IMG/VR virus record: IMGVR_UViG_3300023184_000030
Coordinates: 1-64,000 of that record
DNA length: 64,000 bases
Strand: one strand, 5' to 3'
DNA from: a virus
Both the position numbers and the translations under genes were made by a program. A model generated the notes under the pieces. That model was not told the DNA's origin and did no database searches. It saw only the letters and a program-made list of their open reading frames with translations. This document shows, in pieces, positions 21,044 through 49,876 of the stretch (the stretch's first letter is position 1; the number at the start of each line of letters is the position of its first letter).

Positions 21044-21094
21044 AATTTAGTTTTTTAATTTGATTATTATATATTGATTAAGTGGATTTGTTTC

Positions 21095-21130
21095 AAAAAA
21101 AAATCCTTGTCAATTAAATGACAAGGATTT
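21095..21130 (-). terminator. Terminator downstream of the tmRNA
   Basis: AAATCCTTGTCA/TGACAAGGATTT stem + T-run. Confidence 0.75.
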
Positions 21131-21135
21131 GGGCG

Positions 21136-21598
21136 TGGACCTAGAGAGATTCGAACTCTCGTCTCCTTCAGTTAATACTAAGAATTCATTCACAGGCTTA
21201 GAAAGTTTTTTATAAACTTACAAACTAATCTGGTTTATGACACCAGCAAACATTTTGCTGTCTTTTAGTGACTTACAGCGTCAGTCAGAGAACTTATACT
21301 AACAGCGATCTTAAGGGTATTGATATTATCTCAGGGTTACTGATCATAAGCTCTACTTTTTTGGTACTGTTAACCCTTTTTCCCAACGTCACATTTTTTT
21401 AAACGGAGTAAGTGAGACTCCGGAGGTTATGCAGCGTAAGCGTACTCAACCTCAGCTACAGGTGCACCAAACATGTTGATAACGTCCCAAACTGATTTTT
21501 TGCCATTTATAGCGTTATATAGGTTATTAAAGTGTTTCCAATACTAACACTGCCTGCATTCAAAGAACTACGCCTGCGGATCAATTCCGGTTAGGCCC
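21136..21598 (-). ncRNA. ssrA: tmRNA (transfer-messenger RNA), about 463 nt, tag GKKSVWDVINMFGAPVAEVEYAYAA
   Basis: 5' GGGCCUA pairs with 3' UAGGUCC-A (G3:U70 Ala identity); T-arm GAGAG-UUCGAAU-CUCUC; AUAAAU-GGC resume context; tag ORF 21504-21427 ending YAA; CCA not encoded. Confidence 0.9.
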
Positions 21599-21618
21599 AT
21601 TTATTATGTATCTATAGA

Positions 21619-22554
21619 TCAGGGTAAATTATTTGTTTCGATCCCATATAATTCTCTGTTCTTAATGACACATTCTATTATATGATCTTTCAAATTTAAT
21701 CTTGATGATATCAGATTAGCGAATAGGGACTGTTCTTCCTCTTCTATATTAAATATTCTTTTCTTGAATCCCCATACATGGAGAAATCCCTTCTCGCTTA
21801 TTTCGTCTATATCTGAATCCTCAAAGTAGCATTTGGTTTTTCTTAGTTTATCCTCCGGCTGGTATATTCCGCTTATGAGAGAAGAAACCTTAAGCTCCTT
21901 TTCTTTACAGAACTCATAAAGGAATCTCTGCTCAGCTAGCAATATGTAACCTAGCTCAAATGCTGGATTTATTTTGTCCGTACCGTTAACAAAATTCAAG
22001 GCCTCTGTAGCATATTCTTTTGCAATTTGGATGTCTCTAAAGTAAAGTAAACTGGTGTTATAAGCTTTTTTATCCCAGCTAAATCCGTATCTGCTTGTAA
22101 AATAGCCCCTTGTATCTATGAATTCCGGATCTGGATAGTGTATAAGATCGTGGTCCAATATTGCTTCCGCATGTGCACAGAAAACATCGCAATCTGAAAA
22201 ATCAATCTCAAATCTAACTTCGGCGTCAAGATCAACCATGAGGAAATTTTCTTCGATGTCATTTATCGCTATAAATTTTCCAGCTGCCCAAAATATTGAC
22301 GGGTCAAATTCTGGATTGATTGGTAGTATAGGTCTTATCTCATCAAAGCATCTGTCCAGTCCAACCTCCTTGTAATATTCATGAATTTCGGGATCACAAT
22401 ATAAGACAGGGCTTAGATTATTATATTCCTTGGCGAAATGTGTTGATCTCACAATCATAGCAATCTCCCAAGGCTTTTTAAATTTGCTAATCGCTCCCCT
22501 TTTTTTTCTTGGCATAAACCAATCAACATATATGGCTTTAGTCGGTCTCATCAA
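21619..22554 (-). CDS. Putative GT-A-fold glycosyltransferase-like protein (DUF6734-like)
   Basis: FWAAGKF, MVDLD (DxD), YNTS, AEQRFL, FLHVWG. Confidence 0.6.
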   Translation of the reverse strand: MMRPTKAIYVDWFMPRKKRGAISKFKKPWEIAMIVRSTHFAKEYNNLSPVLYCDPEIHEYYKEVGLDRCFDEIRPILPINPEFDPSIFWAAGKFIAINDIEENFLMVDLDAEVRFEIDFSDCDVFCAHAEAILDHDLIHYPDPEFIDTRGYFTSRYGFSWDKKAYNTSLLYFRDIQIAKEYATEALNFVNGTDKINPAFELGYILLAEQRFLYEFCKEKELKVSSLISGIYQPEDKLRKTKCYFEDSDIDEISEKGFLHVWGFKKRIFNIEEEEQSLFANLISSRLNLKDHIIECVIKNRELYGIETNNLP

Positions 22555-24737: not shown

Positions 24738-26195
24738 TTATTTATTTTCAAAGTAGATTCCTGCATGGGCTTCACCCTTTGCTTTACCCGGACTATATTT
24801 ATCTTCAGGCTCTTCAGTAACCACGAATGCCTTATTAGGATTTACTATTAACCCCATTCTTCTCATTAGTGTTCTATTTGCTAAGAATGGCGTGCTTTTA
24901 TCTGTTCTGTCGACAGGGGAAACTTTAACATTAGGTATTAGGCTTCCGTTAAATTCAAGGTTAATTTCTATAATAGGTCTAGTGTGTGTATCCCTTCCAA
25001 TTTCAGCATCGGAATATCCGACAATATCATTAACAAACTTCTTATCCCCAACAGTCCAAAGAAGCTTTTTACCATTCTCTTCAATTTCGTCTGCATGAAG
25101 TGTGCAAGATTTTGCTCCATTTCCAGTATCGAATTTAGCTATCATATTACCAATTCCTGGTATAGATATTTGCTCGAGATAGCCAATTTCTAAGTTAGCA
25201 TAGCTCCAATTCTCCTTATCTAAAATGTAATCAAGCACATCGTTAACAATAGGTTTACCTATAGCCTTAGAAATACCCTCTGTTCCCGGAGATGAATTAA
25301 CCTCTAAAATATAAGGTTTCTTAGTTTTCTTATCTATCATGATATCTACCCCACACCAGTGACATCCAACTGCGTTAGCTGCTTTGCAAGCTATTTCTAC
25401 TAAATCCTCTGGGATTTCGTAATTTGATACAGATCCACCTAAAGAATAGTTAGTTCTAAAGTCTTTATCCACCGCCTCTCTTTTCATAGATCCTAAGATA
25501 ATACAGTTGTCTGAAGATGGTTTGATTGGATCGAAGTTCTTAATTATAACCTGAATTCTAAGGTCAAAGTTTGAATCAATTTTTTCCTGAACCAATATCT
25601 CACTGTTCTCATCAAGTTTTCTTATCGTTTGATAGACAGACTTTAAAGATGCGTAAGAATCCACAATAGAAACTCCAATGCCTTGTGTTCCCGATAAAAG
25701 CTTCATGATAATAGGAAATTTACCTCCTATCTTTTCTAATGCAGAATCGAGAAATTCCTCATTCGGTACTAAAGCATATTTAGGAACGGGTAATCCCGCT
25801 TCCTCCATGTATTGTGAAGTTATGTACTTGTTTTCGCAAACCTCGATGGATTCCAGTGTATTTACAGTGAAATATCGGTCAGCTTCTAATTGTGTCAGAA
25901 TTTGCTTAGTGTAAGAGTTTTCTATTACTCCTCTTCTTGGTATAATCACTGTTGAATTGGGATCGATTAGGATTCCCTCTTCCCCAGTTTTTAATAGGTG
26001 CCCATTATAAACTTTCTCTATTACCACCTGGTTTACATCAACCACGTAGCATTCAACACCTCTTTTTTCACATTGTTCTTCAAAAGACTTAGAGGTCTTA
26101 CTTCCCTGGGTATTCCCAGTCAGAACTATAACCTTAGTGGTTTCTCCTTTTGCTTCATTTAAAAAGGACCAAAAATCCAATACTTTACCGGCCAT
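24738..26195 (-). CDS. rimK: RimK-family ATP-grasp ligase fused to RimK-associated retropepsin-like protease
   Basis: GTQGIGV, VQE, DLRI, FRTNYSLGG, GVD, LEVNSSPG; C-terminal AKFDTG..S..LH...RP..DR. Confidence 0.88.
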   Translation of the reverse strand: MAGKVLDFWSFLNEAKGETTKVIVLTGNTQGSKTSKSFEEQCEKRGVECYVVDVNQVVIEKVYNGHLLKTGEEGILIDPNSTVIIPRRGVIENSYTKQILTQLEADRYFTVNTLESIEVCENKYITSQYMEEAGLPVPKYALVPNEEFLDSALEKIGGKFPIIMKLLSGTQGIGVSIVDSYASLKSVYQTIRKLDENSEILVQEKIDSNFDLRIQVIIKNFDPIKPSSDNCIILGSMKREAVDKDFRTNYSLGGSVSNYEIPEDLVEIACKAANAVGCHWCGVDIMIDKKTKKPYILEVNSSPGTEGISKAIGKPIVNDVLDYILDKENWSYANLEIGYLEQISIPGIGNMIAKFDTGNGAKSCTLHADEIEENGKKLLWTVGDKKFVNDIVGYSDAEIGRDTHTRPIIEINLEFNGSLIPNVKVSPVDRTDKSTPFLANRTLMRRMGLIVNPNKAFVVTEEPEDKYSPGKAKGEAHAGIYFENK

Positions 26196-26218
26196 CAATA
26201 TTCTATTATTTTTATAAG

Positions 26219-47888: not shown

Positions 47889-49772
47889 TTACTTGATTTC
47901 TTCGTACTCTACATCTTGTAGATCTTCCGCACTATCGGAGGTTTGTTCAGAAGGTGCTTCAGTTGCTTGAGCTTGCTGATCTGCTGCGTATACAGCAGAA
48001 GCTATCTCATTCATCTTATCTGAAAGGGCCTTCATTGTAGATTCGATAGCATCTAAATCGTCACTGTCCATGATTTTTCTTAATTCTTCTATTTTATCAG
48101 AAATCTCTTGTTTATCCGAATCACTTACTTTGTCTCCAAAGTCGCTAATCGCTTTTTCCATTTGGAAACACATAGAAGAAGCCTCATTAGAAAGCTGTGA
48201 TTTTCTTAGCCTCACTTTATCTGCCTCTGCATTTGCTTCAGCATCATTTTTCATTTTTTCGATTTCTTCGTCGGTTAACTTAGATCCGGATTCAATTCTG
48301 ATATTTTGTACTTTACCTGTTCCCTGGTCTTTAGCAGAAACCTTGATGATACCGTTAGCATCAATATCAAATGTAACCTCGATCTTAGGAATACCTCTCA
48401 TTGATGGTGGGATATCGGTTAATTGAAATCTTCCAAGTGATCTATTATCGATAGCCATTGCTCTTTCCCCTTGTAATACGTGGATTTCCACTGCTGGCTG
48501 ATTATCTGCAGCGGTAGAAAATACTTCACTCTTTGTTACGGGAATAGTAGTATTGGATTCTATCAATTTGGTAAATACACCACCTACTGTTTCGATACCT
48601 AATGAAAGAGGGGTAACGTCTAATAAAAGAACGTCCTTAATATCACCAGCTAAAACACCTCCTTGAATAGCAGCACCAATAGCTACCACCTCATCGGGAT
48701 TAACCCCCTTAGAAGGTTTTTTACCAAAAAGTTTTTCAACCTCTTCTTGTACCTTAGGTATTCTTGTAGATCCACCTACTAGGATAACCTCATCAACTTG
48801 AGCAGCTGTTAATCCCGCATCTTTCAGTGCTTTCTTACAAGGTCCTAGAGTTCTTTTAATTAGGTCCTCGCACATAGACTCAAATTGAGCTCTAGATAAT
48901 TTTTTTACAAAGTGCTTAGGTCCGTTTGAATCCGCACTTAAATAAGGAAGATTAATTTCCGTCTCGGTAGAAGCAGAAAGTTCAACTTTTGCTTTCTCTG
49001 CGCCTTCTCTAATTCTTTGATAAGCCATAGGATCTTTAGAAGCATCCACACCAGTTTCATCTTTAAATGCAGCAACTACCCAATCAATAATCATCTCATC
49101 AAAGTTGTCACCACCTAAGTGGGTATCGCCGTTTGTAGAAAGAACCTCAAATACTCCAGATCCTATTTCCAGGATCGAAACGTCAAATGTACCACCACCT
49201 AAGTCATATACTGCAACCTTAAGATCTTTATCCCCTTTATCCAAGCCATAAGCTAAAGCAGCTGCTGTTGGCTCGTTAATAATTCTTAATACTTCTAAAC
49301 CTGCAATCTCACCTGCTTCTTTTGTCGCCTGTCTTTGACTATCATTAAAATATGCAGGTACAGTGATGACTGCTTGTTTAATTTCTTCACCCAAATAATC
49401 CTCTGCTGTTTTTCTTAGATTCTGTAGAACCATAGCTGAAATCTCTTGCGGAACGTATTCCTTTCCGTTTGCTTCCACAATTACTTTTCCTTTAGAGTCC
49501 TTAACTTTATAAGGCATCTTCTTTGCCTCATTTTTAATCTCACTGTACTGTGATCCGATAAATCTCTTTACTGAATAAACAGTGTTCTCGGGATTAGTAA
49601 CCGCTTGTCTCTTTGCAGAGTCTCCGATTCTAATGTCACCGTCTTTAAAAGAAACCACACTAGGTGTAGTTCTTTTCCCCTCCGAGTTAACAATAACTAC
49701 GGGTGTGCTTCCTTCAATTACAGAAACACATGAATTTGTTGTTCCTAGGTCAATACCAATTACTTTTGCCAT
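47889..49772 (-). CDS. dnaK: Chaperone DnaK (Hsp70)
   Basis: [37 protein letters not shown]; start ATG 49772. Confidence 0.98.
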
Positions 49773-49876
49773 TTGTTTTAAATTTATTATTTTTAGTTGA
49801 TTTTTGAGAAAAGATTCCACTACTTGATCATATTCTCTAAAGTAAGTTATCAAAATGAGTTCCGAAAGTAATTAAA

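What the first reader, a model, noticed from the sequence alone, without database searches (positions are those of the whole stretch)
21136..21598. Phage-encoded tmRNA with an unusually long 25-residue tag
Seen: a full tRNA-like domain with G3:U70, a T-arm, its own terminator, and the tag frame GKKSVWDVINMFGAPVAEVEYAYAA. Known: typical tags are about 10 aa ending in AA, and Bacteroidota tags begin with Gly. Here the Gly start and YAA end are kept, but about 15 extra residues with an amphipathic WDVINMF segment are inserted and the RNA is ~463 nt. CCA is not encoded and no smpB is visible in the window. Inference: the phage replaces host tmRNA (for example after anti-phage nuclease cleavage) and may redirect tagged proteins to another adaptor or protease.
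Basis: partly seen in the sequence, partly recalled or inferred. Interest (0 to 1): 0.75.

Follow-up and report, generated by a model that had tools for sequence, protein, structure and literature searches.

The report
Jumbo-phage tmRNA with conserved 25-residue tag
A large freshwater phage carries its own ribosome-rescue RNA (tmRNA) whose tag is 25 residues long rather than about 10; about 30 related large phages, and none of the bacterial genomes searched, share this extended tag, so it probably does more than mark proteins for destruction.

Summary
Window 21136-21598 (minus strand) is a one-piece tmRNA (Rfam RF00023, 49.3 bits, E 1.9e-16). It has a G3:U70 acceptor stem, a T arm, pseudoknot 1, no encoded CCA and its own terminator.

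The 25-codon frame GKKSVWDVINMFGAPVAEVEYAYAA is very probably the real tag.
- About 31 related IMG/VR contigs, mostly 100-434 kb phages, keep a frame of 25-34 codons that starts at the same place, nt 94-99, after an invariant UAAA[U/C].
- Both other frames always contain stops.
- Indels are in frame, and synonymous codon changes preserve the core VW[DEN]xINxFG.
- ARAGORN's short alternative (EVEYAYAA) depends on a context that the family does not conserve.

Sampled Bacteroidota chromosomal tags are 8-10 residues. The core pattern was not found in a tmRNA context in 185,579 species genomes.

The window's record is only 63% complete and lacks smpB. All five complete relatives encode SmpB and ClpP, so the lineage brings its own rescue kit. 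Contigs in RNA libraries from four studies lie on the gene.

The function of the 16-residue insert, probably an amphipathic docking element, is inferred and not shown. This scan has already flagged sister long-tag phage tmRNA families on other DNA. I found no paper describing them. Verdict: a new variant of a known kind, of moderate-to-high interest.

The parts
21136..21598 (-). tmRNA gene, 463 nt from G1 to discriminator A; CCA not encoded (next bases CGC)
   Evidence: Rfam RF00023 49.3 bits, E 1.9e-16. Ends set by the acceptor pairing. Family covariation.
21592..21598 (-). 5' strand of the acceptor stem, GGGCCUA, with G3 of the G3:U70 alanine identity pair
   Evidence: G:U at this pair in 19 of 20 aligned family members; the one exception looks like an alignment shift. 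4 of 7 stem pairs show compensatory changes.
21517..21551 (-). Pseudoknot 1 (tmRNA nt 48-82): stem 1 AGUGUU/AACACU and stem 2 GUAU-GG/CC-UAUAU
   Evidence: Both stems are 100% paired in 20 sequences. There is one A-U/U-A swap, 12:8.
21505..21509 (-). Frame-setting sequence UAAAU directly before the resume codon (U at -5, A at -4)
   Evidence: UAAA[U/C] is invariant in all family members. It corresponds to E. coli U85/A86, which set the frame 4 nt downstream (PMC2481249).
21427..21504 (-). Tag reading frame: 25 codons, GKKSVWDVINMFGAPVAEVEYAYAA, plus UAA
   Evidence: The frame is open and 25-34 codons long in every relative, while both other frames have stops. Indels are in frame and there are synonymous changes.
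21460..21492 (-). Conserved insert core VWDVINMFGAP (codons 5-15): V, W, I, N, F and G invariant in 17 distinct tags, P in 16
   Evidence: This is the only occurrence of the motif in the 172-kb record. It was not found in any tmRNA-like context in 185,579 species genomes.
21423..21453 (-). Helix 5 (GAGGUU...AACCUC), which encloses the end of the tag frame and the stop codon
   Evidence: Pairing read from the sequence. Only partly conserved in the family: 44-83% of cells paired, with some compensatory changes.
21136..21160 (-). T arm (GAGAG-UUCGAAU-CUCUC), 3' acceptor strand UAGGUCC and discriminator A
   Evidence: T arm 100% paired, with 4 of 5 pairs showing compensatory changes.
21092..21130 (-). 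Intrinsic terminator: 12-bp stem, 6-nt loop, run of 9 T
   Evidence: Terminator-like sites found: 4, against 0.4 expected in shuffles.
21603..21639 (-). Candidate promoter: GAAACAAAT at 21631-21639 and CATAAT at 21603-21608
   Evidence: GAAACAA(A/T) sits at about the same distance upstream in most G-type relatives. The motif is not enriched in the window. Candidate only.

Best explanation
This is a functional one-piece tmRNA gene of a large freshwater phage, from a clade in which complete relatives are 319-434 kb.

Inferred pathway, by standard tmRNA biology:
1. The gene is transcribed as its own unit and ends at its own terminator.
2. A CCA-adding enzyme adds the 3' CCA.
3. Alanyl-tRNA synthetase charges the RNA with alanine through G3:U70.
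4. SmpB delivers it to stalled ribosomes. The SmpB is most likely the phage's own, since every complete relative encodes one.
5. Translation resumes at GGC, 4 nt after the conserved A.
6. The nascent chain receives Ala plus a 25-residue tag.

The tag has three parts:
- a host-like start, G-K/E-x-N/S;
- a phage-specific 16-residue insert whose core is VW[DEN]xINxFGxP;
- a host-like C-terminal degron, [YFL]A[YVI]AA.

Shown here: the gene, its structure, the conserved frame, its restriction to phage contigs in the collections searched, and its presence in RNA libraries.

Inferred: the C-terminal AA still sends tagged proteins to a Clp-type protease, either the host's ClpXP or the phage's ClpP. 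The insert, probably a short amphipathic helix with one conserved face, would be a second recognition element that recruits a specific partner such as an adaptor, an unfoldase or a chaperone. That would give the phage control over the fate of products of stalled ribosomes.
For: Gene and structure:
- Rfam hit above the gathering score.
- On 20 family members, 91.5% of cells pair, against 33-48% when partners are slid. 17 pairs show compensatory changes, and G3:U70 is kept.
- Terminator present.

The tag frame:
- 31 related viral contigs carry tags of 25, 28 or 34 codons that start at nt 94-99 after UAAA[U/C].
- Stops occur in both other frames in every member.
- L009 and L014 keep VWxxINxFG while using GTA and AAT in place of GTT and AAC, and their indels are 3 nt.
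- L007 and L012 differ by 8 synonymous and 4 conservative changes.
- ARAGORN itself calls the full 25- and 28-residue tags at the same resume position in the sister subfamilies.
- The E. coli rule, resume 4 nt after A86 and 12 nt after PK1, fits this site (PMC2481249).
- The tag core and PK1 are the most conserved parts of an RNA that is otherwise only about 60% identical across the family.
- Variable core positions follow a helix-like period.

Phage restriction:
- The PK1 pattern has 0 hits in genome contigs.
- The core pattern has 23 hits there, none tmRNA-like.
- 32 sampled Bacteroidota tmRNAs are 349-400 nt with tags of 8-10 residues.

Partners:
- SmpB and ClpP are present in 5 of 5 complete relatives and lie about 1 kb apart in the closest one.
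- A phage DnaK lies in the window itself.

RNA:
- Contigs in metatranscriptome libraries of four studies lie on the gene. One 429-nt contig covers 21151-21560, and its differences spell the tag variant of the closest relatives.
Against: - No tagging, charging or degradation has been measured.
- Within the 14 closest G-type genes the core codons GTT, ATC, AAC, TTT and GGT are invariant even at third positions. Part of the conservation could therefore act on the RNA.
- Pairwise pN/pS over the whole tag is only 0.58, against 0.68 and 1.13 in the other frames.
- The helical-periodicity test is marginal (p about 0.055).
- The window's own record has no SmpB or ClpP.
- The window sequence also offers a UA-containing context before the ARAGORN site (UAGCU|GAG).
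- The Hsp100 of relatives is nearest ClpB, not a known ClpP partner, so no phage unfoldase for the tag has been identified.
- RNA-library contigs cannot show strand, ends or level, and may include DNA.
Confidence: 0.8

Rival explanations
1. It is a tmRNA, but translation resumes further downstream at GAG, as ARAGORN predicts. The tag would then be an ordinary 8 residues (EVEYAYAA), and the upstream 17 codons would be untranslated leader.
For: - ARAGORN with a lowered threshold calls EVEYAYAA, and does the same in 5 relatives at default settings.
- In the window that site is preceded by UAGCU, which resembles the E. coli UAGUC.
- The distance from PK1 to U85 is reported as not critical (PMC2481249).
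Against: - The UAGCU context is not conserved. L004 has AGUUCU|AAA and L006 has GCAGCU|AAG.
- The upstream 17 codons are the best conserved part of the RNA. They never contain a stop, while both other frames do.
- Indels there are multiples of 3, and synonymous changes preserve the peptide.
- The site lies 51 nt beyond the canonical position. The invariant UAAA[U/C] sits 13 nt after PK1.
- ARAGORN calls the long tags in the sister subfamilies.
Confidence: 0.07
2. The extended frame is conserved mainly for an RNA-level reason, such as structure or binding of SmpB, S1 or another factor. Its peptide would have no function beyond carrying the C-terminal degron.
For: - Third positions of five core codons are invariant in the 14 closest genes.
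- Whole-tag pN/pS differs little between frames.
- Tag-coding regions of bacterial tmRNAs are also strongly conserved at the nucleotide level among relatives (my own knowledge).
Against: - RNAalifold finds only 2-3-bp hairpins in the core.
- More distant members change the codons and keep the residues (GTT to GTA, AAC to AAT; L007 versus L012).
- Other subfamilies keep the length of 25-34 codons with unrelated nucleotide sequences.
- The conserved and variable positions alternate as on a helix face.
Confidence: 0.1
3. The gene is a relic or a decoy: either a piece of host tmRNA picked up at an integration site, or an RNA that only titrates SmpB and does not tag proteins.
For: - tmRNA genes are common integration sites.
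- Mycobacteriophage DS6A carries little more than the tRNA-like domain, and a similar molecule has been shown to inhibit tmRNA (PMC4131195; PMC11915505).
- The Rfam score is low at 49 bits, against 93-198 for the chromosomal genes sampled.
Against: - The gene is full length, with every module present and compensatory changes in the stems.
- The PK1 pattern and the tag-core pattern found no counterpart in 185,579 species genomes.
- It is conserved across phages whose tmRNAs are only about 60% identical.
- It co-occurs with a phage SmpB that passes the NCBIfam equivalog cut-off.
- The open tag frame is maintained.
Confidence: 0.03

Closest known systems
Standard one-piece bacterial tmRNA (SsrA, Rfam RF00023), e.g. 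chromosomal tmRNAs of Bacteroidota
   Same: - tRNA-like domain with G3:U70, T arm and closing helix.
- PK1 followed by a U-A frame-setting sequence and a tag frame that ends in hydrophobic-A-A plus a stop in helix 5.
- The tag starts with Gly, like GENNYALAA-type tags.
   Different: - Tag of 25 residues, against 8-10 in 32 sampled Bacteroidota genes. RNA of 463 nt, against 349-400.
- A 16-residue conserved insert between the host-like ends.
- Low model score (49 bits against 93-198), because the PK2-PK4 region is divergent.
- Encoded by a phage.
Long ssrA tags of Mollicutes (e.g. Mesoplasma florum mf-ssrA), which are recognised by Lon instead of ClpXP
   Same: A tag much longer than the usual 10 residues. 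It is the one documented case where tag extension goes with a change of protease specificity (review PMC9382460).
   Different: - Those tags are chromosomal, end in NYAFA, and evolved in bacteria that lack ClpXP.
- Here the canonical xAxAA end is kept.
- The phage relatives encode ClpP but no Lon.
- I did not compare the sequences, because no reference sequence was available from the tools.
Previously reported phage tmRNAs: mycobacteriophage Bxz1 group, Bacillus phage G, the two-piece tmRNA of pelagiphage-like Melnitz, and tmRNA/SmpB in huge phages
   Same: - Phage-borne tmRNA. In huge phages it comes together with SmpB and other translation genes (PMC4131195, PMC9004378, PMC7162821).
- The window's DnaK is closest to the 634-735 kb phages that the huge-phage paper predicts to replicate in Bacteroidetes.
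   Different: - Those papers list the presence of the genes and discuss no extended, conserved tag.
- They annotated with ARAGORN. That program misses 11 of 16 G-type genes of this family and shortens the tag in the other 5.
Bipartite E. coli ssrA tag (the N-terminal part binds the SspB adaptor, the C-terminal LAA binds ClpX)
   Same: The idea of two recognition elements in one tag: an upstream adaptor site plus a C-terminal degron (PMC9963277 abstract).
   Different: - No SspB homologue in the five complete relatives.
- The insert is longer, hydrophobic and aromatic, and unrelated in sequence.
- Its partner is unknown.

Membership tests
tmRNA (SsrA, RF00023) | Covariance-model match at or above the curated gathering score | tested here: met
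   49.3 bits against 47, full model 1-374, E 1.9e-16. Relatives score 48-100 bits.
tmRNA (SsrA, RF00023) | tRNA-like domain: 7-bp acceptor stem with G3:U70, discriminator A, and a T arm with a GUUCGAAUC-type loop | tested here: met
   Read from the sequence. G:U in 19 of 20 aligned relatives. Compensatory changes in 4 of 7 acceptor pairs and 4 of 5 T-arm pairs.
tmRNA (SsrA, RF00023) | Pseudoknot 1 upstream of the tag frame, and a long closing helix joining the 5' and 3' parts | tested here: met
   PK1 stems and the UGCAGGC/GCCUGUG helix are 100% paired in 20 sequences, with one compensatory swap in PK1.
tmRNA (SsrA, RF00023) | Internal tag frame that begins 4 nt after a conserved A and ends in a hydrophobic xAA degron plus a stop | tested here: met
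   UAAAU|GGC ... GCU GCA UAA. The context and the open frame are conserved in all relatives. Rule taken from PMC2481249.
tmRNA (SsrA, RF00023) | 3' CCA end | tested here: not met
   The genome reads A-CGC. Only 2 of the 22 distinct family genes examined encode CCA. CCA must be added after transcription, as for many bacterial tRNA and tmRNA genes (my own knowledge), so this does not exclude membership.
tmRNA (SsrA, RF00023) | SmpB partner available | tested here: inconclusive
   None in the 172,849-bp record, which is 63% complete. Present in 5 of 5 complete relatives, where it passes the NCBIfam equivalog cut-off. Host SmpB is presumably also present.
tmRNA (SsrA, RF00023) | Charged with alanine and adds the tag to proteins on stalled ribosomes | not testable with these tools
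   Needs biochemistry or mass spectrometry.
tmRNA (SsrA, RF00023) | Made as a discrete stable RNA | tested here: inconclusive
   Contigs in RNA libraries of four studies lie on 21142-21590, and several have their whole length (236-351 nt) inside the gene. Contigs do not show strand, ends or level.
ClpXP-type ssrA degron | C-terminal Ala-Ala preceded by hydrophobic residues | tested here: met
   YAYAA here and [YFL]A[YVI]AA in 17 distinct family tags. Recognition by any protease was not tested.

The most novel reading that the evidence does not exclude
The conserved amphipathic insert, VW[DEN]xINxFGxP, is a docking site for a phage-encoded factor. Candidates in complete relatives are ClpP with an unidentified unfoldase, the N-domain-less Hsp100, or the phage DnaK. 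On this reading these large phages run a private channel that decides whether products of stalled ribosomes are destroyed, held or recycled, separately from the host's ssrA pathway. The different long tags of the sister subfamilies would then each match a co-evolving partner.
Probability: 0.25. Interest if true: 0.8.

Novelty: new variant of a known kind. Interest (0 to 1): 0.6.

Why it matters
tmRNA tags are a textbook example of a short, simple degron. Here a whole clade of large phages keeps a tag 2.5 to 3.5 times longer, with a core more conserved than the degron itself, and carries it alongside phage SmpB, ClpP and chaperones.

This suggests that phages reprogram what happens to proteins from stalled ribosomes, rather than merely adding rescue capacity. 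It also offers a natural set of potentially orthogonal tags for synthetic biology, as the long Mesoplasma tag and its Lon protease already do.

There is a practical point as well. The standard annotation tool misses most of these genes or truncates their tags, so surveys of phage tmRNAs probably undercount and mis-describe them.

Tried and rejected
- **ARAGORN at default settings** finds nothing in the window or the whole record, and no tRNAs either.
- **Searches for close copies.** Megablast of 16 kb around the gene against GenBank phages found nothing. An exact 31-nt pattern from the 3' end found nothing in viral contigs.
- **pN/pS over the whole tag** does not separate the frames well: 0.58, 0.68 and 1.13. 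I relied instead on open-frame conservation, in-frame indels and specific synonymous changes.
- **Helical periodicity** of variable positions is marginal (p 0.055). I used it only as a hint.
These were mostly UDP-galactopyranose mutase, which happens to contain VWEYINRFG. I replaced it with a tighter pattern that ran to completion.
- **BLAST of the phage tmRNAs against sampled Bacteroidota tmRNAs** matched only the generic T arm and acceptor, so it gives no host assignment.
- **Pfam on the neighbouring genes** gave DUF6734, an SLT transglycosylase and small ORFs, with no link to the tmRNA.
- **No Lon, SspB or ClpX zinc finger** in the five complete relatives.
- **The Hsp100 of relatives** cannot be assigned to ClpC/ClpA rather than ClpB.
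- **GAAACAAAT** is not enriched in the window.
- **RNA-library contigs gave no cover on the 840 flanking bases**. Absence of cover in contigs proves nothing, so I do not use it as evidence of a discrete transcript.
- **Complex prediction** of the tag with candidate partners was not attempted, because the tag (25 residues) is below the tool's 30-residue minimum.
- **The idea that the phage tmRNA replaces nuclease-cleaved host tmRNA** could not be addressed by any tool.

Full report
**What is there.**
Rfam's tmRNA model (RF00023) matches window 21133-21598 on the minus strand over its whole length, at 49.3 bits (gathering score 47) and E 1.9e-16.

Read directly from the sequence:
- The RNA starts GGGCCUA and ends UAGGUCC-A. 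This gives a 7-bp acceptor stem with G3:U70 and a discriminator A.
- The next bases are CGC, so CCA is not encoded.
- The T arm is GAGAG-UUCGAAU-CUCUC.
- A 12-bp hairpin with a run of T follows at 21130-21101.

The gene is 463 nt long. The frame that starts at GGC (tmRNA nt 95) reads GKKSVWDVINMFGAPVAEVEYAYAA and then UAA.

**Is it a phage gene?**
- The window is the first 64 kb of an IMG/VR virus record of 172,849 bp, judged 63% complete.
- Nearly all ORFs lie on one strand.
- They include phage-type ribonucleotide reductase, topoisomerase II, a helicase and a DNA transfer protein.
- The 654-residue protein at 47889-49853 is a DnaK. Its best matches are the 634-735 kb uncultured phages, which Al-Shayeb et al. 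predict to replicate in Bacteroidetes (PMC7162821).
- Public runs that hold this stretch are freshwater and lake metagenomes.

**The tag length: the open question.**
ARAGORN at default settings finds nothing. At a lowered threshold it finds the gene but starts the tag 17 codons later, giving EVEYAYAA.

*Finding relatives.*
- A neighbouring protein led to three related contigs that carry a tmRNA.
- A pattern from pseudoknot 1 found 27 viral contigs.
- A back-translated tag motif found four more.
- All 17 that I scanned are Rfam tmRNAs. Many of the contigs are 200-434 kb.

*What the relatives show.*
- Every member has an open frame of 25 codons (one has 28 and one has 34). It begins at nt 94-99, directly after an invariant UAAA[U/C].
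- Both other frames contain stops in every member.
- There are four tag types:
  - G-type, G[KEN]x[SN]-VW[DEN]xINxFG[AT]P...[YFL]A[YVI]AA, with 17 distinct peptides;
  - ANVELSTWTFEDAMAFADGEFAMAA;
  - a 28-residue tag;
  - a 34-residue tag.
- Two divergent G-type genes (L009, L014) keep V-W-x-x-I-N-x-F-G. They use GTA for GTT and AAT for AAC, carry one extra codon before the core, and have one codon fewer after it.
- L007 and L012 differ by 8 synonymous and 4 conservative changes.
- The tag core and PK1 are the best conserved stretches of an RNA that is otherwise only about 60% identical across the family.

*The resume site.*
- In E. coli the resume codon lies 12 nt after PK1 and 4 nt after the nearly invariant A86 of UAGUC (PMC2481249). 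Here it lies 13 nt after PK1 and 4 nt after the A of UAAAU.
- The context of ARAGORN's site (UAGCU|GAG) is not conserved in relatives.
- In the sister subfamilies ARAGORN itself calls the full 25- and 28-residue tags at the equivalent position.

I conclude, with about 85% confidence, that the 25-codon frame is what is translated.

*Two reservations.*
- Among the 14 closest G-type genes, five core codons are invariant even at third positions.
- Whole-tag pN/pS does not discriminate the frames well.

Some RNA-level constraint on this stretch is therefore not excluded.

**RNA structure.**
I named a structure consisting of the acceptor stem, T arm, closing helix, both PK1 stems, helix 5 and the following hairpin, and counted it on an alignment of 20 family members.
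- 91.5% of cells pair, against 33-48% when the partners are slid.
- 17 pairs show compensatory changes.
- The T arm and both PK1 stems are 100% paired, and G3:U70 is kept.

This is a bona fide tmRNA family under purifying selection on structure.

**Comparison with hosts.**
- In 151 Bacteroidota genomes, 144 have an RF00023 match over the cut-off. The listed matches are about 350-405 nt long and score 93-198 bits.
- The 32 that I examined with ARAGORN have tags of 8-10 residues, for example GENNYALAA, ANYNYALAA and DNNYSYRLAA.
- The 2025 tmRNA database paper gives 10 residues as the most frequent tag length (PMC11915505).
- The phage tag looks like such a tag with 16 residues inserted. L004 shows this clearly: GEKN + insert + YTVAA.
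- The PK1 pattern has no match in 185,579 species genomes.
- A complete scan with the tag-core pattern gives 23 matches, none in a tmRNA-like context.

As far as these searches reach, the family is found only on phage contigs.

**Partners.**
- The window and its record have no SmpB or ClpP.
- All five complete relatives (319-434 kb, CheckV 100%, three with terminal repeats) encode SmpB and ClpP.
- In the closest relative (tmRNA 96% identical, neighbouring proteins mostly 80-98% identical) the two genes are about 1 kb apart.
- That region has no counterpart in the window's record, so it probably lies in the missing third of the genome.
- The SmpB passes the NCBIfam equivalog cut-off. The ClpP scores far better against true ClpP models than against head-maturation models (237 against 67 bits).
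- Four of the five relatives also carry an Hsp100 ATPase without an N domain. NCBIfam places it nearest ClpB.
- None has Lon, SspB or a ClpX zinc finger.

Together with the DnaK in the window, this lineage carries a protein-quality-control set of its own.

**Expression.**
Six metatranscriptome runs hold part of the stretch. I laid contigs from four of them, each from a different study.
- Their contigs fall on 21142-21590. Several lie inside the gene over their whole length (236-351 nt).
- One 429-nt contig covers 21151-21560.
- Its differences spell the tag variant of the closest relatives (V8A, M11S, A14T, A17T), so the frame is kept.

Contigs cannot give strand, ends or level, so this is supportive evidence only.

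**Mechanism.**
- Shown: a structurally intact, conserved phage tmRNA with a conserved long tag frame.
- From established tmRNA biology: CCA addition, alanylation through G3:U70, delivery by SmpB, resumption at GGC and release at UAA.
- Inferred:
  - The xAxAA end still acts as a Clp-type degron.
  - The insert is a second recognition element. Its invariant V, W, I, N, F and G fall on one face of a helix, with the variable residues on the other face.

Two precedents support the idea that tag extensions carry specificity: the SspB-binding half of the E. coli tag, and the long Mollicutes tags that switched to Lon (PMC9382460). The partner is unknown.

**Novelty.**
Phage tmRNAs are known (PMC4131195, PMC9004378, PMC7162821). 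I found no paper that describes an extended, conserved tag in phage tmRNAs. The library searched is limited to open-access papers and preprints.

ARAGORN, the annotation tool used in the cited phage papers I checked, misses 11 of 16 G-type genes and truncates the tag in the other 5. That may explain why the extended tag has gone unremarked.

This scan has already reported sister long-tag phage tmRNA families on other DNA. The phenomenon is therefore not unique to this window. The G-type family described here shared only a few short words with those earlier windows.

Noticed in passing
window 47889-49853 (-): A phage-encoded DnaK (Hsp70), 654 residues. It is 57-60% identical to the genes of the 634-735 kb uncultured phages LR756502, LR745206 and LR756501, and matches PHROG 22485 at E 3.5e-259.
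   Followed up: partly
L223 (LR745206.1 about 204.9-205.3 kb): The 634-kb uncultured phage has a tmRNA-like gene that both Rfam (at the gathering score) and ARAGORN miss. It has a GGGG start, a UAAAC|GGA resume context, a 29-codon frame ending PATV rather than AA, and an odd T loop. It shares the CUAAGCCUGUGAAUGA box with this family.
   Followed up: partly
whole record G000 (172,849 bp): There is no tRNA gene in the whole record. The A-type relatives (L007, L012, L031) have tRNA arrays within a few kb of their tmRNA.
   Followed up: no
window 21631-21639 (-) and 21086-21094 (-): GAAACAAAT occurs about 33 nt upstream of the tmRNA and again just after its terminator. The upstream copy is conserved in most G-type relatives. 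It may be a promoter element or a cassette boundary. It is not enriched in the window as a whole: 4 matches against 2 expected.
   Followed up: partly
L002, L003, L004, L021, L022, L038 (directly 3' of their tmRNAs): In place of the window's terminator, many relatives have a conserved long inverted repeat, GATTTCGTACTTTAGTTTAGATATATAA-CTAAACTAAAGTA, after the tmRNA. Its function is unknown.
   Followed up: no
Genome-contig hits L065-L184: The tag core VW[DE]xINxFG coincides with a conserved motif of UDP-galactopyranose mutase (YGPHIFHT...VWEYINRFG). That protein dominated the degenerate pattern scan. This is probably coincidence.
   Followed up: no
window 24738-26198 (-): A 486-residue protein that matches the PHROG annotated as 'ribosomal protein S6 glutaminyl transferase' (RimK-like), E 2.2e-18. 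It is another possible translation-related phage gene near the tmRNA.
   Followed up: no
L230 622-1473 (-) in the closest complete relative: A UDP-glucose/GDP-mannose dehydrogenase-like ORF (283 residues, N-terminally short) sits between ClpP and SmpB.
   Followed up: no
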